Assembly (NCBI RefSeq): GCF_044324785.1
Contig: NZ_CP172127.1
DNA length: 64,000 nt
Strand: one strand, 5' to 3'
Source: Escherichia coli
GTDB lineage: Bacteria > Pseudomonadota > Gammaproteobacteria > Enterobacterales > Enterobacteriaceae
The position numbers and the translations under genes are program-made. Below the pieces are notes generated by a model. The model was not told where the DNA came from. It did no database searches and worked only from the letters and a program-made list of their open reading frames with translations. Of this stretch, positions 12,497 to 54,425 are shown one piece after another (within the stretch, counting starts at the first letter, position 1; the number at the start of each line of letters is the position of its first letter).

Positions 12497-12530
12497 GTGG
12501 CTTAGCCAGGCTAAGCCACCGCCTTCTTTT
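12497..12530 (+). terminator. Intrinsic terminator after yigG (bidirectional hairpin at the ancestral yigG/corA junction)
   Basis: Stem 'ggtggcttagcc / ggctaagccacc' followed by 'gccttctttt'. Confidence 0.65.
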
Positions 12531-12679
12531 TACAACCAGTTCTTCCGCTTAAAGTACAGATACGGTGCCAGGCCCGCGAGGATCATAAAGATAATCGCGC
12601 CAGGGTAGCCGAAACTCCACTTCAGTTCCGGCATAAACTCAAAGTTCATGCCATAGCTGGAGGCAATCCGCGTAGGAAA
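12530..12679 (-). pseudogene. corA: Displaced 3'-terminal fragment of corA (last ~48 codons, no start)
   Basis: ~150 bp that is a near copy of corA 14241..14390 (identical over the first 70 bp, a handful of mostly silent mismatches afterwards, then diverging); encodes ...[44 protein letters not shown], identical to the CorA C-terminus. The 67-aa ORF 12530..12733 is this fragment fused to unrelated upstream sequence. Confidence 0.85.
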
Positions 12680-14240: not shown

Positions 14241-15191
14241 TTACAACCAGTTCTTCCGCTTAAAGTACAGATACGGTGCCAGGCCCGCGAGGATCATAAA
14301 GATAATCGCGCCTGGGTAGCCGAAACTCCACTTCAGTTCTGGCATAAACTCAAAGTTCATCCCGTAGCTGGAAGCAACCAGCGTCGGTGGCAGGAACACC
14401 ACGGATACCACCGAGAAGATTTTGATGATGCGGTTCTGCTCGATGTTGATAAAGCCCATAGCCGCCTGCATCAGGAAGTTCACCTTCTGGAACAGGGATT
14501 CGTTATGCGGCAGCAGGGATTCGATATCTCGCAGGATTTCACGCGCCTGCTCCAGTTGCCCACCCGGTAAGCGTGCTTTACGTACCAGGAAGTTGAGCGC
14601 GCGCTGGGTATCCATCAGACACAGGCGAACTTTCCAGCCGATATCTTCCAGTTCCGCCAGCGTGGAGAGCGCCTCGTCGTACTCATCGCCCTGATGCCCT
14701 TCCATAATTACCCGGCTCAACTGCTCCAGGTCGCTGTAGATATTTTCAATTTCATCTGCCAACTGTTCGATTTTGGTTTCGAACAGATCCAGCAGCAGCT
14801 CGTAGGCATTACCGTCTACCATCGACTGGCTACGGGCACGCATACGATACAGACGGAATGCAGGCAATTCACGCTCACGCAGAGTAAACAGACGACCATC
14901 ACGGATGGTAAATGCCACAGTGGAGTTACCGGCGTGATCTTCCGCATCTTCAAAGAAGAAGAAGGAGTGAATATGCAGGCCGTCATCGTCTTCAAAGAAA
15001 CGTGCCGATGCTTCGATGTCTTCCAGTTCCGGGCGGGTTGCCAGGCTCTGGCCAAGTTCAGATTGTACGCGCAGTCGCTCGTCGTCGTCCGGTTCGACAA
15101 GATCAATCCATACTGCATTTACAAGGGGTTGTGACTCTTCGACTTCCAGCCGGGTCAGTCGGTTATTTTCCAGTTGAAATGCGCTCAGCAT
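14241..15191 (-). CDS. corA: Mg2+/Co2+ transporter CorA
   Basis: Start placed at [31 protein letters not shown]... (316 aa); C-terminal GMN motif ([11 protein letters not shown]); 'cat' at 15189..15191. Confidence 0.93.
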
Positions 15192-23136: not shown

Positions 23137-24645
23137 GTGATCGGCACCTCGCGCCAGGATGGCTTTATGCACTATCGCAATGTGGTTTGTTTGTTGTCTT
23201 GTTCGTTGTTTTTATCGTCGGCATGGGGATGTCGGCTTTCCGCGCCTGAACATAATATTTACCAGAAACAGGGAAAAGGCGTGGTATACCTGCGCCCTTA
23301 TAAAGAAACAAATCTTTCTCTTCCTGACGTGAATTACAAAAGTTTGCGTCGGTTACCCAATTTATTAATAGACCCGACAACACTAGACGAATGGGATAAA
23401 GAACCGCCTCTGACTGATTTGACAACCGACTACCTCTATGAAGGCGCACAGGCCTGGTATCCTCATTACTCCTGGCATAGCGATGGTCGCTATATCCTTT
23501 ACGCGGGTGAAGTTGTGCAAAACCCGCCAGACAAACCTCCCGTCGATGTCGCCTCGTTCAAGGCGTGGGGTGATTTTGCCGCAGATAAACACAGTCTCTA
23601 TTTCGAAGGCAAGCGCACCGATAACAATGGCGGGGGAAATAGCTTAGATATCAAAACACTGCATCAGGTGGAATTCCGGCCTCCCTGGAAACCTGACTTA
23701 CTGGGGCTGATATTACGTGACGCTAATTTCTTATATATCAATGGGCATCGCCTCGCTGACCCCGAGAGTTTCCGTGTGCTGGCGCAGAAGTCCTGGGATC
23801 AGCGAGGAAAGTTTTCTACCGCGTTTAATCCCTGTGTGGCTATGCCATTTGGCCCCTGGGATACCCTGGCTCGTACACGGACCAAAATCCTGATCAACGG
23901 CGAACAGCTTGATGCCGACCCGGACACCTTTTCCGTCGTGCGCTGGATGCCCGGCTCACTCTTGACCTGGCGTGATAAAAACGGGCTACAGCGTAAAGTC
24001 CTCGACAAGGAAAATCTGGCGTGGGATGAAGATTTAACAAAGCACTGTCTGGATTTTTCTCTGCTGGAAAAGAAAGTGTTCTGGCGTAAAGGGCCTGACT
24101 GTAAACAGGAAGAGTTACCGGGGCTCGATCCTGAACAGTTCCACCCCATCAGTGATGCTGTCGCCCAGTATCAGGATTCGCTTTATACCATCATCGAAAC
24201 AGAGTCTGGTGACCGCAAGCTGGAGATCGTGAAACTTGATGATCCCAATCTTATTATCAACAAACGTTTCAACGCCGGGAAACGCCACGGCTATTTACTT
24301 ACGCGTGCCGAAGGGTGGCCATACCATTCCGGTTTACACGTGTTTGAATCTGACGGACCGCTGATCTTACTGGATAACCGCTCTCCGGATGAACGCGAAG
24401 CCCATCTTAATGACCATCCCTTTTTGCGCAGATGGTATGCCCGCGATAACCGCTACATTTACAGCTTTGATGGCGCGCAGCTCTGGCGATACCGCATCGC
24501 TGATCCGAAACAAGTTCGCTTAATCTGGAAGGAACAACATTCGGGATATGGCTATGGCGTAAATTACAAAACGGGATATCTGGACGGAAAAATTACTGAT
24601 GACGGCGAATTTATTCCTGCCCCGCGCAATGAGGCGACAAAATGA
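23137..24645 (+). CDS. Secreted repeat protein (DKNYY-like repeats), first of a tandem paralogue pair
   Basis: 502-aa ORF (an alternative start at 23167, MHYRNVVCLLSCSLFLSSAWGC..., gives a signal-like N-terminus); recurring motifs DKHSLYFEGKR, DANFLYINGHRL, DNRYIYSFDG; collinear similarity to the downstream ORF. Confidence 0.65.
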   Translation: MIGTSRQDGFMHYRNVVCLLSCSLFLSSAWGCRLSAPEHNIYQKQGKGVVYLRPYKETNLSLPDVNYKSLRRLPNLLIDPTTLDEWDKEPPLTDLTTDYLYEGAQAWYPHYSWHSDGRYILYAGEVVQNPPDKPPVDVASFKAWGDFAADKHSLYFEGKRTDNNGGGNSLDIKTLHQVEFRPPWKPDLLGLILRDANFLYINGHRLADPESFRVLAQKSWDQRGKFSTAFNPCVAMPFGPWDTLARTRTKILINGEQLDADPDTFSVVRWMPGSLLTWRDKNGLQRKVLDKENLAWDEDLTKHCLDFSLLEKKVFWRKGPDCKQEELPGLDPEQFHPISDAVAQYQDSLYTIIETESGDRKLEIVKLDDPNLIINKRFNAGKRHGYLLTRAEGWPYHSGLHVFESDGPLILLDNRSPDEREAHLNDHPFLRRWYARDNRYIYSFDGAQLWRYRIADPKQVRLIWKEQHSGYGYGVNYKTGYLDGKITDDGEFIPAPRNEATK

Positions 24646-25952
24646 AGGGTCAAATAATCACAGTTGCACTCATCCTGTTGGGGCACACATTTCTGACACC
24701 TGCTGTACAGGCCATAGAGTTCGACTATTACAATGATCACGGTGTCATGTCTTACGGTAAAGGTTATTGGGGGGATAAGAAAATCATTGCCCAATTTCCG
24801 AAGATGAACAGGGCCGATTTGCGCCTTGTGAAAAATATATCCGGGGAGACGGATTATATACCTTCCGATGAAATGAGCATAAAAAATGAGGAATACCACT
24901 GGGTGACAGACGGCCACGTTATTCTCTGGCGTGGCAAAATCGTTAGCAATCCACCGGGAACACCCACTGTCGATATTGCCAGCTTTCAGGCTATGGGCCG
25001 CTTCGCGGTCGATAAATATAGCCTCTATTTTGACGGACAGCGCACCGAAAGTAATAGCGGCGCGTCACGTGTTGATCTGGCGACACTAAAAGCTATCGAA
25101 GGTAACTCTACCACGCTGGTGGATAGTAAAAATCTCTACTTGTCCGGTAGACGTCAGGGGAGCAGCAGTAATGTTACTGTATTAGAAAAAAGATGGTGGG
25201 GTATTAATCCACGTCTTATGAGTGTAAACAGAAATTTGTATTCCAATGATCTGCTTATCCGCAGTGGGCAGAATATTTATTTAAATGGCGTTCACCTTAC
25301 GGCGAATGCAGACTCATTTGAGATAATTCGCTGGATACCTCATTCACTGCTGGTTTTTCGCGATAATAAGGGTATGCATCGTTATCCCTTTGGGCAATTG
25401 TCTGGCAAAGCGATACCCGTAGATGATGACGTCTCTTTTGAAGTAGGAGAAAGTCGCGTTCGCTGGCGTAAACAGCTCACGCCCGACCGTCAGTGGAGCA
25501 AGTGGATAGACCTACCAGGTATTGAACCTGAACAATTCCATCTGATTACTGGCAATATTGCGCAATATAAAGATCGGTTGTATGTAACAAAATTATCGAC
25601 ATTTGGTGAAGACCAGCTTGAGATAATCCCGCTGGATACGCCAGACCTGGTCATTGATCGCTCATTTAATAGCGGCAAACAGCATGCTTATTTTATCCGC
25701 CAATTACGGTCAAAGAGCGTGCAAATTATTCCAGTTAACGGTCCGCTAACTAAAAACGATCGCTTCGCTTATGACGATCGCAATGTTTATACATGGACCG
25801 ATACAGAGGTAAGGATTACGCCCTCCCCCTGCCCGGCGAAAACACGCGTCAGAGAAGAGAATGTGCGTGAACTTCACAACAGAGACATTATTATTCCGTT
25901 GACGGATGAATCATGCCAGAACGCAGCAGACGAGCAAACTTTGAAGCCCTGA
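24642..25952 (+). CDS. Secreted repeat protein (DKNYY-like repeats), second of the tandem paralogue pair
   Basis: 436-aa ORF with signal peptide MKGQIITVALILLGHTFLTPAVQA; start overlaps the upstream stop (ATGA); motifs DKYSLYFDGQR, DSKNLYLSGRR, QNIYLNGVHL, DRNVYTW. Confidence 0.65.
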   Translation: MKGQIITVALILLGHTFLTPAVQAIEFDYYNDHGVMSYGKGYWGDKKIIAQFPKMNRADLRLVKNISGETDYIPSDEMSIKNEEYHWVTDGHVILWRGKIVSNPPGTPTVDIASFQAMGRFAVDKYSLYFDGQRTESNSGASRVDLATLKAIEGNSTTLVDSKNLYLSGRRQGSSSNVTVLEKRWWGINPRLMSVNRNLYSNDLLIRSGQNIYLNGVHLTANADSFEIIRWIPHSLLVFRDNKGMHRYPFGQLSGKAIPVDDDVSFEVGESRVRWRKQLTPDRQWSKWIDLPGIEPEQFHLITGNIAQYKDRLYVTKLSTFGEDQLEIIPLDTPDLVIDRSFNSGKQHAYFIRQLRSKSVQIIPVNGPLTKNDRFAYDDRNVYTWTDTEVRITPSPCPAKTRVREENVRELHNRDIIIPLTDESCQNAADEQTLKP

Positions 25953-25999: not shown

Positions 26000-26320
26000 A
26001 TGAACGACAGTGAATTTCATCGCCTGGCTGATCAACTCTGGCTGACCATTGAAGAGCATCTGGACGACTGGGATGGCGATAGCGATATCGACTGCGAAAT
26101 CAACGGCGGCGTACTGACCATTACCTTTGAGAACGGTAGCAAAATCATTATCAACCGTCAGGAACCGCTGCACCAGGTGTGGCTGGCAACCAGGCAGGGC
26201 GGCTACCATTTCGACCTGAAAGGCGATGAGTGGATTTGCGATCGCAGCGGCGAAACCTTCTGGGATTTGCTGGAACAGGCGGCGACGCAGCAGGCGGGTG
26301 AAACAGTCAGTTTCCGCTAA
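26000..26320 (+). CDS. cyaY: Frataxin homologue CyaY
   Basis: 106-aa [59 protein letters not shown]... Confidence 0.93.
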
Positions 26321-26359: not shown

Positions 26360-28906
26360 TCACGAAAAATACTGCTGTAATAGCGGCGTGTCGTGATCCT
26401 GATTGGCAGGCGGCATGTTGCCGATAGATTTGGTGCGGAACGGAATCACCTGTTCACGACCATCAACCTTCACAATCTGATAGAACTGCGGCAGGTTGAA
26501 GTTGATGAAGCTTGAGCCGTAGGTAAAACGGTCGTGCGATGACGAGTAGAAGCGACTGACGTCACGCACCAGCTCCTCTTTGCTGCCTTCGCAGTGGTGA
26601 TACACCTCAACCCGGTTGCTTTCGTCGAGAATGTAGATATTAAAGCCATTCTCGTCTTGCGTTTCTTCGAAGAAGAACTGGATGATCCCTTCGCTGGCAA
26701 AGCCGTCCACCACCGCCGGTAATTTGACGTGATTGGTTTCAACCTGCACTGACAGGCCGTGCAGTTTGTTATGCGAAATAGCGCCATAAAACTCGATGGC
26801 GTTTTCCAGTTTCTGTACCGATACATTCAGGCGTTCGAAGAACAAGCCCCAGGTTTGACCAGAAACGCGCAGCGCCTTGAAACGTCCGGTTTCCTGGCGG
26901 GTGCTGGAAAGACGCAATTCAATACACTCAGAAACCAGTTGCTGCACGCGAGTACGGATTAAGCCGCGCAGATGCTGGCTGTAGCAGAAGACTTCCACGC
27001 TATCTGGCGGTGCGGCGTCCTGATGCATTTTGCCGAGAATAGTTTTCAGGGCTTCGATCATCGATTGCTCGCCGTTGAAGTGCAGCGTACGCACTTCGTT
27101 CCACGAGTTGCGGTACAGCAGGTCCACGCTACCCACCAGGCAATTTTGGTTTTCGCCAAAGCTGAAGACATCCAGCTTACGGAAATCAAAATGCACCACC
27201 TGATTGCGGAACGCAGCTGTCGGGTCATATTCCAGGTTAACGATAATCGCCAGATGGCGAATTTCACACGGGCTGTAGAGCGCTTTTGGCGTCGGTGCAG
27301 GCAGGCGCAGCGGGAAATGGTGTGACACATCGGCGACCATCTCCTGCAACTTAGGCAAATCGACAATGCCGTTACCTTTAATATACAAACGGGTACGCGA
27401 GGTCAGCAGGCCGTTAAACCATGCCCACGCCACCAGTTTATTCAGGTAACGGTTATATTCCAGCGGCTGATGGCTGATGATCGACTCAATATTTGGCGCG
27501 CGGTTATACAGATACCAACCTGAACGGTTAGCCCGGCCCGGCGGCACATAAATAAAGGTCAGATTCGGTTCCGAGAGATCGGGTGAAATCTGCGGGTTTA
27601 CCAGCGTCACTTTACCCGGCAATGCTTCAAACGCGGCATACAGCTTACGCGTCAGCACGCCGATATCCTGCGGACTGGCGGAGACGCTCAGGTTATTGCG
27701 ACGCGCAAAGCGGATCAGATTGCGGTAGCTCTGCATCATCGCGTCGAGCAACTCGTTGTGCGCCTCACGCACCTGATCAATCTTCCAGTTAGCGCGGTTA
27801 TCGAGCATTGCCAGACGCGCATCGTCCCATTCCCACTCTTTCACTAACTGGGTTAGCACTTCACGACGCCAGCCTACACAGGCGCGTTCACGGCTGAGTT
27901 TTTCGCACACTTTTAAATAGAAGCAGCGACGTACTAAATCCAGACGGGTGAAATCTTCAATCGCCGTCAGGTATTCAGTAACACGCTCCAGCATCATGCA
28001 GTACGGATCGAGGCCAAACGATACAATCTCGCCGTCGTGCAAACGCTGTTTGATATCTTTCGCCAGCAGTCGTGGGTTCGGGTATTCCCAGGAATAGGCT
28101 TCCAGCAGCAGTGTTTTCAGCACCGCTTTGTATGGGGAATCGATACTCTTATAGAGCTGCCAAAGGCTGGCACCAAAGTACTCTTCAGCAGAAAGTGAGC
28201 TTAAGCCACCGAGATCCAGCCATTCATTTGGCGTCAGCACGCCCTGCGCGTAAAGCGTCATCACATAGTCATCGTAATGCTCTTCTTCGTCGCACGGCAC
28301 CATATTCCACAGAATACGCTTACCGGCGAGACGCACGGCGGTACGATAAAATTCGTCAAGCAGCAGTATATGCTGGGTGGAGCCACAATCTTCGCCCCCC
28401 AGGCTGCCGCTTTCATTATGACGGAAGCGGTTTTCATCAATCAGGAAGAAGCTAACTTCCACGCCCAGCGAGGCGGCCCAGCTTTCCAGCAGGCTGCATT
28501 TACGTTGTAGTAACTGGCGCTCTTCGCTATCAAGCCAGGATTGATGACAGACCCAGATATCAAGGTCAGAGGAACAACTTTGCCCTACGGACGAGGTGCT
28601 GCCCATGGTGTATACACCAGTAATTGGAAGCTCACCTTTCGGCGGGTCCTGTACTGACATTCCACGATACAGTTCAAGCTCGTTCAGATAGTGGCGTTGA
28701 GTTTCATCAGGCGTGTAAAGGCAAATGCCTTTGGGAACGTTACCATCAAGGTAACCCGGCATTAGCGGATGGTGATAGTGCAACAATGTCGGCAGTAGAC
28801 TGTAGACCTGTTGGAATGCAGGCCCCATAGCAGCAAGCGCGCGATCCACACGCAATTGATTTATGGCATCCAGTCTCTGTTTCAGAGTCTCAATATAGAG
28901 GTACAA
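26360..28906 (-). CDS. cyaA: Class I adenylate cyclase
   Basis: 848-aa [38 protein letters not shown]...; initiation codon is TTG (plus-strand 'caa' at 28904..28906). Confidence 0.93.
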
Positions 28907-29292
28907 GACGTATCGCCTGATTTGCTACCCGTCATGACTGTGATTCCGCCAACATCAACGGTAACACGCGGCATTCGGGATATTTCGTATGTCAAAGGTA
29001 ACCGTTACCACTTTTCGCGCCTGGTTTTTTTAGTTTCACGACGAAAAAATGGTCTAAAACGTGATCAATTTAACACCTTGCTGATTGACCGTAAAGAAAG
29101 ATGCGCTACATACAAGTGTAGCACCGTTTATTCTCTGTAAATTCCTTATTACGACGGCGTGAAACGCCTGTCAGGATCCACTGCCAGACCTCATTTTACG
29201 GTTTGCGCAGGCGTCTACGTTTCACCACAACACTGACATCGCTCTGGCAAGGATGTTAGGATGGACCACGGATGATAATGACGGTAACAAGC

Positions 29293-30234
29293 ATGTTAGA
29301 CAATGTTTTAAGAATTGCCACACGCCAAAGCCCACTTGCACTCTGGCAGGCACACTATGTCAAAGACAAGTTGATGGCGAGCCATCCGGGCCTGGTCGTT
29401 GAACTGGTACCGATGGTGACGCGCGGCGATGTGATTCTTGATACGCCGCTGGCGAAAGTAGGCGGAAAAGGCTTATTTGTAAAAGAGCTGGAAGTCGCGC
29501 TCCTCGAAAATCGCGCAGATATCGCCGTACATTCAATGAAAGATGTGCCGGTTGAATTCCCGCAAGGTCTGGGGCTGGTCACCATTTGCGAGCGTGAAGA
29601 TCCTCGCGATGCCTTTGTGTCCAATAACTATGACAGTCTGGATGCGTTACCGGCAGGCAGTATCGTCGGGACGTCCAGTTTACGTCGCCAGTGCCAACTG
29701 GCTGAACGCCGCCCGGATCTGATTATCCGCTCCCTGCGCGGCAACGTCGGCACTCGCCTGAGTAAACTGGATAACGGCGAATACGATGCCATCATTCTTG
29801 CCGTAGCCGGACTAAAACGTTTAGGTCTGGAGTCACGCATTCGCGCCGCGTTGCCACCCGAGATTTCTCTTCCGGCGGTAGGACAAGGTGCGGTGGGCAT
29901 TGAATGCCGCCTTGATGATACACGCACTCGCGAGCTGCTTGCCGCGCTGAATCACCACGAAACTGCACTGCGCGTTACCGCAGAACGCGCCATGAATACC
30001 CGTCTCGAAGGCGGATGTCAGGTGCCAATTGGTAGCTACGCCGAGCTTATTGATGGCGAAATCTGGCTGCGTGCGCTGGTCGGCGCGCCGGACGGTTCGC
30101 AGATTATTCGCGGTGAACGCCGCGGTGCGCCGCAAGATGCCGAACAAATGGGGATTTCGCTGGCAGAAGAGCTACTGAATAACGGCGCGCGCGAGATCCT
30201 CGCTGAAGTCTATAACGGAGACGCCCCGGCATGA
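29293..30234 (+). CDS. hemC: Porphobilinogen deaminase (hydroxymethylbilane synthase)
   Basis: Start placed at [27 protein letters not shown]... (313 aa); the ORF has 7 additional upstream in-frame codons. Confidence 0.92.
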
Positions 30235-33486: not shown

Positions 33487-33693
33487 AAAAAAACGCCTGC
33501 TCTTATTACGGAGCAGGCGTTAAAACAGGTCTGTATGACAACAAGTGGGTGCTTCACTCAACGTTGTGTCCATGGTGTCTGATGAGGCATAAGCGACATC
33601 TGTCAGTGGACGATAAGCACCGTAAACGGCTCTGCGTCATTCCGGAGTTTATGAGGCACTAAGGCGAACATAAGAGATGGAATGAGCATCTAC
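33487..33693 (-). ncRNA. glmZ: Small regulatory RNA GlmZ
   Basis: Minus-strand sequence GTAGATGCTCATTCCATCTCTTATGTTCGCCTTAGTGCCTCATAAACTCCGGAATGACG...AACGCCTGCTCCGTAATAAGAGCAGGCGTTTTTTT matches the GlmZ sequence as I recall it, including its terminator hairpin and U-tail; located in the hemY-aslA spacer. Confidence 0.9.
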
Positions 33694-37256: not shown

Positions 37257-37333
37257 TGGTCGGCGAGAGAGGATTCGAACCTCCGACCCACTGGTCCCAA
37301 ACCAGTTGCGCTACCAAGCTGCGCTACTCGCCG
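37257..37333 (-). tRNA. proM: tRNA-Pro
   Basis: Minus strand reads CGGCGAGTAGCGCAGCTTGGTAGCGCAACTGGTTTGGGACCAGTGGGTCGGAGGTTCGAATCCTCTCTCGCCGACCA, with encoded CCA. Confidence 0.95.
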
Positions 37334-37375
37334 AAATACTGCTTTTTGAATTTTTAGTTCAATTCTTTAAAGTCG

Positions 37376-37462
37376 TGGTGCGAGGGGGGGGACTTGAACC
37401 CCCACGTCCGTAAGGACACTAACACCTGAAGCTAGCGCGTCTACCAATTCCGCCACCTTCGC
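37376..37462 (-). tRNA. leuT: tRNA-Leu (anticodon CAG)
   Basis: Minus strand reads GCGAAGGTGGCGGAATTGGTAGACGCGCTAGCTTCAGGTGTTAGTGTCCTTACGGACGTGGGGGTTCAAGTCCCCCCCCTCGCACCA (long variable arm). Confidence 0.95.
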
Positions 37463-37482
37463 ATTGTCACAACTTCTAATAA

Positions 37483-37559
37483 TGGGGTGGCTAATGGGAT
37501 TCGAACCCACGACAACTGGAATCACAATCCAGGGCTCTACCAACTGAGCTATAGCCACC
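37483..37559 (-). tRNA. hisR: tRNA-His
   Basis: Minus strand reads GGTGGCTATAGCTCAGTTGGTAGAGCCCTGGATTGTGATTCCAGTTGTCGTGGGTTCGAATCCCATTAGCCACCCCA (with extra 5' G). Confidence 0.95.
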
Positions 37560-37616
37560 ACTACAAATCTTGTTACGCGGTATTACTACCACCGCAGCTC
37601 AAGCGCCGGGACTAAA

Positions 37617-37693
<77 letters not shown>

Positions 37694-53965: not shown

Positions 53966-54295
53966 TTACGCCAGGTTAGCGTCGAGGAACTCTTTCAACT
54001 GACCTTTAGACAGTGCGCCCACTTTGGTTGCCGCCACTTCACCGTTTTTGAACAGCAGCAGAGTCGGGATACCACGGATACCATATTTCGGCGCAGTGCC
54101 AGGGTTTTGATCGATGTTCAGTTTTGCAACGGTCAGTTTGCCCTGATATTCGTCAGCGATTTCATCCAGAATCGGGGCGATCATTTTGCACGGACCGCAC
54201 CACTCTGCCCAGAAATCGACGAGGATCGCCCCGTCCGCTTTGAGTACATCCGTGTCAAAACTGTCGTCAGTCAGGTGAATAATTTTATCGCTCAT
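53966..54295 (-). CDS. trxA: Thioredoxin 1
   Basis: Start placed at [50 protein letters not shown]... (109 aa, WCGPC active site); the ORF extends upstream to 54400. Confidence 0.95.
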
Positions 54296-54425
54296 ATATA
54301 ACTCCACAGGAATAAGCCTGGCGTGTTGGTTTCGTTGTTGGTGTAACATTAACCAACTTAAGGTTGACTTTATTTCACCGGATACGCTTTCGTAAAGCAA
54401 TAGTAAGCTGATATTCTACCACACT

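What the first reader, a model, noticed from the sequence alone, without database searches (positions are those of the whole stretch)
28904..28906. cyaA initiates at a TTG codon
The conserved N-terminus [10 protein letters not shown]... is reached only if translation starts at TTG (plus-strand 'caa' at 28904..28906). The weak start codon is a known means of keeping adenylate cyclase expression low.
Basis: partly seen in the sequence, partly recalled or inferred. Interest (0 to 1): 0.25.

Follow-up and report, generated by a model that had tools for sequence, protein, structure and literature searches.

The report
cyaA starts at a TTG codon
The E. coli adenylate cyclase gene in this window does begin at the rare, weak start codon TTG, a textbook case described in the 1980s, so the finding is correct but ordinary.

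Summary
On the minus strand, TTG at 28906..28904 opens the 848-codon cyaA ORF (26360..28906). An in-frame TAG lies 7 codons upstream, with no ATG, GTG or TTG between. RefSeq starts cyaA at this base in three E. coli genomes. The 31-nt core around the codon is identical in 5421 of 5425 complete E. coli genomes, and none carries ATG or GTG in that context.

In 87 species of Enterobacterales, Vibrionaceae, Aeromonadaceae, Moritella and Pasteurellaceae, the homologous codon is TTG in 85. Other conserved Leu columns use TTG in only 7-24% of sequences. Three-base periodicity starts at the TTG, and codons 2-27 show 444 synonymous against 47 nonsynonymous differences. An AGG lies 9 nt upstream but pairs weakly with the anti-Shine-Dalgarno sequence (-2.9 kcal/mol).

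The interpretation, a weak start codon limiting expression, matches the literature. UUG:GUG:AUG give 1:2:6 expression (Reddy et al. 1985, as cited in PMC5499595). The same paper notes that UUG is conserved in cyaA. cya is also listed in the polyamine modulon through its inefficient start codon (PMC7177335).

Verdict: real, correctly interpreted, already known. Interest is low.

The parts
28904..28906 (-). TTG (UUG) translation initiation codon of cyaA
   Evidence: Sequence read. First start of the ORF. RefSeq CDS start maps to this base. TTG in 85 of 87 species of the Enterobacterales-Vibrionaceae-Aeromonadaceae-Moritella-Pasteurellaceae group, and in 84 of 84 aligned sequences, against 7-24% TTG in the other conserved Leu columns.
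26360..28906 (-). cyaA coding sequence, class I adenylate cyclase, 848 codons plus stop
   Evidence: ORF listing. NCBIfam NF006977 scores 2049 bits against a cutoff of 1761 and matches full length. Pfam PF12633 covers residues 5-200 and PF01295 covers residues 228-825. RefSeq annotation agrees.
28907..28921 (-). Conserved translation initiation region, -15..-1 (ATCAGGCGATACGTC). It contains the Shine-Dalgarno-like AGG at 28918..28916, 9 nt before the TTG.
   Evidence: In 50 Enterobacterales species the consensus base is present in at least 80% at 13 of these 15 positions. Conservation falls to 30-70% upstream of -15. Vibrionaceae and Aeromonadaceae also keep an AGG at about -12..-10. Predicted anti-SD pairing is only -2.9 kcal/mol, within the background of cyaA coding windows (mean -2.2, sd 2.2).
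28925..28927 (-). In-frame TAG stop 7 codons upstream of the TTG. It closes the frame to any upstream start.
   Evidence: Sequence read. Stop position at -7 codons (rows L001, L003, L097).

Best explanation
The TTG at window 28906..28904 (minus strand) is the true initiation codon of the E. coli cyaA gene, which encodes class I adenylate cyclase. Initiator fMet-tRNA decodes UUG with one mismatch at the first position. Together with a weak Shine-Dalgarno element (AGG, 9-nt spacer), this makes initiation inefficient and keeps adenylate cyclase synthesis several-fold below what an AUG would give. Shown here: the codon is the only possible canonical start for the conserved N-terminus, it is fixed at the nucleotide level across distant gammaproteobacterial orders, and coding constraint starts exactly at it. 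Taken from the literature: the quantitative effect (UUG:GUG:AUG = 1:2:6) and polyamine stimulation of UUG-dependent initiation. Inferred: selection maintains UUG in order to cap or tune cAMP synthesis.
For:: TTG is followed by [10 protein letters not shown], with an in-frame TAG 7 codons upstream and no other canonical start between; the RefSeq cyaA CDS starts at this base in three E. coli genomes; the 66 nt around the start are identical in 5417 of 5425 complete E. coli genomes; the 31-nt core is exact in 5421 of 5425; no genome has ATG or GTG in that context; the homologous codon is TTG in 51/52 Enterobacterales, 23/23 Vibrionaceae, 9/9 Aeromonadaceae including Tolumonas, 1/1 Moritella and 1/2 Pasteurellaceae. 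It is the first canonical start after an in-frame stop in 54 of 85, and a stop lies within 10 codons in 20; codon 1 is TTG in 84/84, while five other Leu columns conserved at 90% or more use 5-6 different codons, the commonest at 30-59%; TTG is 12% of Leu codons overall; variability by codon position in codons 2-27 is 0.058/0.012/0.312, against a flat 0.40/0.39/0.43 upstream; there are 444 synonymous and 47 nonsynonymous differences from E. coli; family models cover the protein from residue 1 (NCBIfam) or residue 5 (Pfam). (PMC5499595): expression ratio 1:2:6 for UUG:GUG:AUG, and UUG conserved in cyaA of many Enterobacterales and other gammaproteobacteria. (PMC7177335): cya belongs to the polyamine modulon through its inefficient initiation codon.
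Against: No direct protein-level or ribosome-profiling evidence could be examined here, and the primary papers (Reddy 1985, Roy 1983, Thorner 1990) are not in the held library. One Enterobacteriaceae MAG (L121) has TTT at this position, which could be an error or a real variant. Homologues in Pseudomonas-like and Cellvibrionales-like genomes and in Succinivibrionaceae do not use this TTG; most have an in-frame ATG, often about 15 codons upstream. The TTG start is therefore a trait of one clade and not a requirement of the enzyme.
Confidence: 0.94

Rival explanations
1. Translation really starts downstream, at ATG codon 27 (28828..28826), GTG codon 20 or TTG codon 18, and the first 17-26 codons are untranslated leader.
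For: ATG at codon 27 is itself conserved in almost all TTG-type species. Its predicted anti-SD pairing (-3.1 kcal/mol) is no worse than that of the TTG (-2.9).
Against: Codons 2-27 evolve as coding sequence. There are 444 synonymous against 47 nonsynonymous differences, and third-position variability is 0.31 against 0.01-0.06 at positions 1 and 2. Pfam Adenyl_cycl_N aligns from residue 5, and NCBIfam NF006977 aligns from residue 1. The cited mutagenesis of the UUG changes expression.
Confidence: 0.02
2. The TTG is an internal leucine codon of a longer protein that starts further upstream.
For: In some species the frame stays open far upstream, with the stop 20-66 codons away and occasional upstream ATG, GTG or TTG codons. 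In E. albertii (L011) a 1-nt insertion puts an ATG in frame 10 codons upstream.
Against: In this window a TAG closes the frame 7 codons upstream. In 20 of 85 species a stop lies within 10 codons, at -2 and -4 in several Vibrio. Sequence conservation and periodicity vanish upstream of -15 nt. A Leu codon would show synonymous variation, and none is seen in 84/84.
Confidence: 0.01
3. TTG is the start, but it persists by phylogenetic inertia or neutral drift and not by selection for low or tunable expression.
For: All TTG-type species belong to one related set of gammaproteobacterial orders, so the 85 cases are not independent events. Within E. coli the flanking sequence is equally invariant, so the within-species data have little power.
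Against: The same sequences differ by up to about 50% at the protein level and have randomised synonymous codons at other conserved Leu positions. Yet no switch to ATG or GTG is seen in 85 of 87 species. PMC5499595 reads this conservation as non-random. The experimental 6-fold gain with AUG means such a mutation would not be neutral in expression.
Confidence: 0.05
4. UUG is kept for a specific regulatory property as well as for low output. Candidates are polyamine-stimulated initiation, or initiation that is relatively resistant to ppGpp, cold or nutritional stress. This would tie CyaA synthesis to physiological state. It can be true together with the best explanation.
For: [quoted passage not shown] PMC5499595 reports that UUG was the non-AUG codon least sensitive to cold, nutritional state and ppGpp, and links this to its conservation in cyaA and spoT. 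The codon is specifically TTG and never GTG in 85 species. A demand for weak initiation alone would not explain that.
Against: Nothing computed here separates UUG-specific regulation from simple attenuation. The local mRNA fold is unremarkable (z = -0.69), and no Rfam element lies in the leader.
Confidence: 0.3

Closest known systems
E. coli K-12 cyaA UUG start codon (Roy et al. 1983; Reddy, Peterkofsky and McKenney 1985, as cited in PMC5499595)
   Same: It is the same gene and the same codon. The 66 nt around the start are identical to K-12 GM4792, and the RefSeq CDS starts at the same base.
   Different: Nothing at the start site differs. The window comes from a non-K-12 strain, about 98.9% identical to strain N3 over 30 kb, and carries accessory genes next to cyaY.
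Other E. coli genes that start with inefficient codons and sit in the polyamine modulon (cra, spoT, frr, gshA, uvrY; PMC7177335)
   Same: They use a UUG or GUG start with a normally positioned SD, and their translation is reported to be stimulated by polyamines.
   Different: These are different genes. Only cyaA and spoT are singled out for phylogenetic conservation of UUG.
infC (IF3) AUU start-codon autoregulation
   Same: A non-AUG start codon is used as a conserved expression-control device (mentioned in PMC5499595).
   Different: infC uses AUU or AUC and is autoregulated by IF3 discrimination. No such feedback is known or shown for cyaA, and it was not tested here.
Class I adenylate cyclases of Pseudomonas-like and Cellvibrionales-like genomes (NCBIfam PRK09450.2 models)
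   Same: They are homologous enzymes with the same DLDIWVC catalytic motif.
   Different: They carry an N-terminal extension of about 15 residues: E. coli residues 5-7 align to profile positions 20-22. An in-frame ATG is present upstream in 17 of 19 loci, and none has TTG at the homologous position.

Membership tests
Class I adenylate cyclase (CyaA) | Full-length match above the curated cutoff to the NCBIfam equivalog model | tested here: met
   NF006977 scores 2049.3 bits against a cutoff of 1761, with residues 1-848 aligned to profile 1-848.
Class I adenylate cyclase (CyaA) | Pfam domains Adenyl_cycl_N (PF12633) and Adenylate_cycl (PF01295) | tested here: met
   PF12633 covers residues 5-200 (E = 1.2e-82) and PF01295 covers residues 228-825 (E = 8.7e-259).
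Class I adenylate cyclase (CyaA) | Catalytic-region motif S-D-L-D-I-W-V-C | tested here: met
   The back-translated pattern matches once, at 28547..28570 (-), with 0 expected by chance. The same pattern retrieved CyaA homologues in 118 of 120 loci.
Class I adenylate cyclase (CyaA) | Enterobacterial synteny hemC <-> cyaA -> <- cyaY | tested here: met
   hemC lies at 29293..30234 (+) and cyaY at 26000..26320 (+), flanking cyaA (-).
Genes initiated at UUG, with expression limited by the start codon | UUG is the only canonical start that can give the conserved N-terminus | tested here: met
   An in-frame TAG lies 7 codons upstream with no ATG, GTG or TTG between.
Genes initiated at UUG, with expression limited by the start codon | The codon is conserved at the nucleotide level beyond what a Leu codon would show | tested here: met
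   TTG in 84/84, against 7-24% TTG in five other conserved Leu columns. TTG in 85/87 species.
Genes initiated at UUG, with expression limited by the start codon | Coding constraint begins at the codon | tested here: met
   Periodicity of 0.058/0.012/0.312 downstream against a flat profile upstream, and 444 synonymous against 47 nonsynonymous differences.
Genes initiated at UUG, with expression limited by the start codon | Changing UUG to GUG or AUG raises expression | not testable with these tools
   Reported as 1:2:6 by Reddy et al. 1985, as cited in PMC5499595. The primary paper is not held.
Genes initiated at UUG, with expression limited by the start codon | Ribosome initiation peak at the UUG, or N-terminal Met-Tyr-Leu on the protein | not testable with these tools
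Polyamine modulon, class 2 (inefficient initiation codon) | Polyamines stimulate translation through UUG-dependent fMet-tRNA binding | not testable with these tools
   Stated for cya in PMC7177335, citing Yoshida et al. 2001.

The most novel reading that the evidence does not exclude
UUG itself, and not merely a weak start, is under selection in cyaA across Enterobacterales, Vibrionaceae and Aeromonadaceae. The codon and the conserved 15-nt initiation region upstream would form a sensor that couples CyaA synthesis to polyamine, ppGpp or initiation-factor status. In E. coli an overlapping out-of-frame ATG uORF (28935..28882) might add a further layer. The idea of UUG-specific regulation is already in the literature. 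Only the breadth of the conservation measured here and the uORF observation add to it.
Probability: 0.25. Interest if true: 0.35.

Novelty: already known. Interest (0 to 1): 0.08.

Why it matters
cAMP made by CyaA drives catabolite control through CRP, so capping CyaA synthesis at the translational level is part of how enteric bacteria set cAMP levels. The cyaA UUG has been a classic example of start-codon-limited expression since the mid-1980s. Confirming it here checks the annotation of this window but does not change what is known. The one small addition is a cross-species count. TTG is fixed in 85 of 87 sampled species from five families or orders, while other conserved Leu codons are randomised. 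ATG-starting versions appear only in more distant lineages. This quantifies a conservation that PMC5499595 had noted.

Tried and rejected
- **Primary papers.** I tried to read Reddy 1985 (PMC390610), Roy 1983 (PMC555187) and Thorner 1990 (PMC1204097). None is held, so the experimental claims rest on secondary citations.
- **RNA structure at the start.** The -60..+60 fold is not better than shuffles (z = -0.69). Rfam gathering-threshold hits in the window lie elsewhere and none is in the cyaA leader. I dropped the idea of a structured element.
- **Shine-Dalgarno strength as a discriminator.** Pairing energies are at background for all in-frame candidates. SD strength therefore does not pick out the TTG; conservation does.
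- **Natural ATG or GTG alleles in E. coli.** No genome matches either variant. Four of 5425 genomes differ somewhere within about -11..+13 of the TTG, but I could not identify them or their changes with the tool's output format.
- **Promoter scan.** The consensus scan of the hemC-cyaA intergenic region gave two weak matches against 0.8 expected. I did not interpret them.
- **Downstream or upstream starts.** I considered both and rejected them (see the rival explanations).

Full report
**1. The observation.** The minus strand around the coordinates reads ...ggg TAG caa atc AGG cga tac gtc TTG tac ctc tat att gag act ctg aaa cag.... The ORF listing gives ORF 26360..28906 (-), 848 aa, start codon TTG, beginning [17 protein letters not shown]. 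An in-frame TAG lies at 28927..28925, seven codons upstream. None of the six codons between is ATG, GTG or TTG. In this frame the TTG is therefore the 5'-most canonical start, and no upstream ATG can preserve the N-terminus. The next in-frame candidates are TTG at codon 18, GTG at codon 20 and ATG at codon 27.

**2. What the gene is.** The product matches the NCBIfam equivalog NF006977, 'class I adenylate cyclase'. The score is 2049 bits against a cutoff of 1761, and residues 1-848 align to profile positions 1-848. It also carries Pfam Adenyl_cycl_N (residues 5-200) and Adenylate_cycl (residues 228-825). The window is Escherichia coli. A 701-nt stretch spanning the start is found in 5425 of 5426 complete E. 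coli genomes, at 99% identity or more in 5413. The neighbours are hemC (divergent) and cyaY (convergent), as in K-12. RefSeq annotates the cyaA CDS as starting at exactly this TTG in strain N3, in K-12 GM4792 and in the most divergent genome found.

**3. Within-species conservation.** The 66 nt centred on the start are identical in 5417 of 5425 genomes. A 31-nt query that can only match if the central 25 nt are exact finds 5421 genomes. The same query with ATG or GTG in place of TTG finds none. Because the flanks are equally invariant, this shows stability but says little about selection.

**4. Cross-species test: sampling.** I scanned one genome per species (GTDB representatives) with a DNA pattern back-translated from the catalytic motif S-D-L-D-I-W-V-C. 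That motif is 112 codons from the start, so it does not bias the start codon.

**5. Cross-species test: start codon by lineage.** I projected the alignment back to codon 1.

| Lineage | TTG at homologous codon |
|---|---|
| Enterobacterales | 51 of 52 (the exception is one MAG with TTT) |
| Vibrionaceae | 23 of 23 |
| Aeromonadaceae including Tolumonas | 9 of 9 |
| Moritella | 1 of 1 |
| Pasteurellaceae | 1 of 2 |

- In 54 of these 85 loci the TTG is the first canonical start after an in-frame stop.
- In 20 of them the stop lies within 10 codons, at -2 or -4 in several Vibrio.
- The 19 Pseudomonas-like, Cellvibrionales-like and other gammaproteobacterial homologues have no TTG at that position.
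- Of those 19, 17 have an upstream in-frame ATG, and 7 have it exactly 15 codons upstream. This agrees with the 15-residue offset seen against the PRK09450.2 models.
- The six Succinivibrionaceae loci have ATG.

**6. Controls.**
- If codon 1 were an ordinary Leu codon it should vary synonymously. In 84 aligned sequences it is TTG in 84. Five other Leu columns conserved at 90% or more each use 5-6 codons, with TTG at 7-24% and the commonest codon at 30-59%. TTG makes up 12% of Leu codons overall.
- Among 50 Enterobacterales, variability by codon position in codons 2-27 is 0.058/0.012/0.312, the signature of coding sequence. Upstream it is flat at 0.40/0.39/0.43.
- Differences from E. coli in codons 2-27 are 444 synonymous against 47 nonsynonymous. 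This excludes a downstream start such as Met27, whose ATG is conserved because the residue is.

**7. The initiation region.** Positions -15..-1 (ATCAGGCGATACGTC, window 28921..28907) are at least 80% conserved at 13 of 15 positions among Enterobacterales, and conservation collapses further upstream. The block contains an AGG at -12..-10. Vibrionaceae (cAAGGAA) and Aeromonadaceae (AGGcAGGG) also keep an AGG at that distance. Predicted pairing with the 16S 3' end is only -2.9 kcal/mol, inside the background for cyaA coding windows (mean -2.2, sd 2.2). The gene thus combines a weak Shine-Dalgarno element with a weak start codon. The local mRNA fold is unremarkable (z = -0.69), and no Rfam family matches the leader.

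**8. Mechanism and literature.**
- PMC5499595 states that mutagenesis of the cyaA UUG showed that UUG, GUG and AUG direct adenylate cyclase synthesis at 1:2:6 (1:2:3 in a lacZ fusion), citing Reddy, Peterkofsky and McKenney 1985.
[quoted passage not shown] It adds that UUG was the non-AUG codon least sensitive to cold, nutritional state and ppGpp.
- I could not open the primary papers.

The mechanism I commit to is inefficient decoding of UUG by initiator tRNA, on top of a poor SD, which caps CyaA synthesis. The identity and conservation of the codon are shown here. The size of the effect is taken from the literature. The selective reason is inferred.

**9. Verdict.** Both have been known since the 1980s, and the conservation across species has also been noted in print. 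The cross-species counts here only quantify it. Novelty: already known. Interest: low.

Noticed in passing
window 28882..28935 (-): An out-of-frame ATG at 28935..28933, 29 nt upstream of the cyaA TTG, opens a 17-codon uORF ([17 protein letters not shown], stop TGA at 28884..28882) that overlaps the cyaA start. Its predicted anti-SD pairing (-4.8 kcal/mol) is stronger than that of the TTG (-2.9). Among 50 Enterobacterales species it occurs only in E. coli and Citrobacter sp. FP75. In E. albertii (L011) a 1-nt insertion puts this ATG in frame with cyaA, which would allow a 10-residue N-terminal extension.
   Followed up: partly
loci L010, L012, L027, L036, L039, L055, L067, L100, L118, L122 (position -5 relative to the cyaA TTG): In about ten Enterobacter-, Kluyvera- and Kosakonia-like species, position -4 is T instead of C. 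This creates an out-of-frame ATG 5 nt before the TTG (gatATGtcTTG) that opens a 9-codon ORF (21 codons in L118) overlapping the start. It could compete with the TTG for initiation.
   Followed up: no
locus L121 (Enterobacteriaceae MAG bran_bin.7), homologous start position: This locus has TTT instead of TTG at the cyaA start, with an in-frame stop 10 codons upstream. The next canonical starts are at codons 20 and 27. It may be an assembly error or a real start-codon loss.
   Followed up: no
E. coli genome collection, cyaA start region: Four of 5425 complete E. coli genomes carry a substitution within about -11..+13 of the TTG. They are not ATG or GTG alleles in an otherwise unchanged context. 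I could not identify the genomes or the bases changed.
   Followed up: partly
window 29272..29293 (+): The hemC ORF extends to an ATG at 29272 ([12 protein letters not shown]..., 320 aa), but RefSeq starts hemC at the third in-frame ATG, 29293 (313 aa). The cyaA-hemC divergent intergenic region is therefore 365-386 nt, depending on which start is used.
   Followed up: no
window 23152..25952 (+): Two accessory genes lie between lptM and cyaY: a DKNYY-family protein (23152..24630) and a 436-441 aa hypothetical protein with a signal-like N-terminus (24627/24642..25952). K-12 keeps only a 179-nt pseudogene remnant of the DKNYY gene at this site.
   Followed up: partly
window 12530..12673 and 14241..14384: A 144-nt fragment of the 3' end of corA is duplicated at 95% identity. 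The two copies bracket a YPO3983-family gene and a DUF943 gene, which looks like a small insertion next to corA.
   Followed up: no
window 33487..33693 (-), 37260..37693 (-), 54266..54365 (-): Rfam gathering-level hits are the GlmZ sRNA (218 bits), a cluster of four tRNA genes (annotated Arg-His-Leu-Pro in strain N3) and the trxA 5' UTR thermometer (78.7 bits).
   Followed up: no
window 29103..29124 (both strands): A perfect-looking 7-8 bp hairpin (GTGCTACA CTTGTA TGTAGCGC) followed by a T-rich run lies in the hemC-cyaA intergenic region, about 200 nt upstream of the cyaA TTG. It scores as terminator-like on both strands. Its role is unknown.
   Followed up: no
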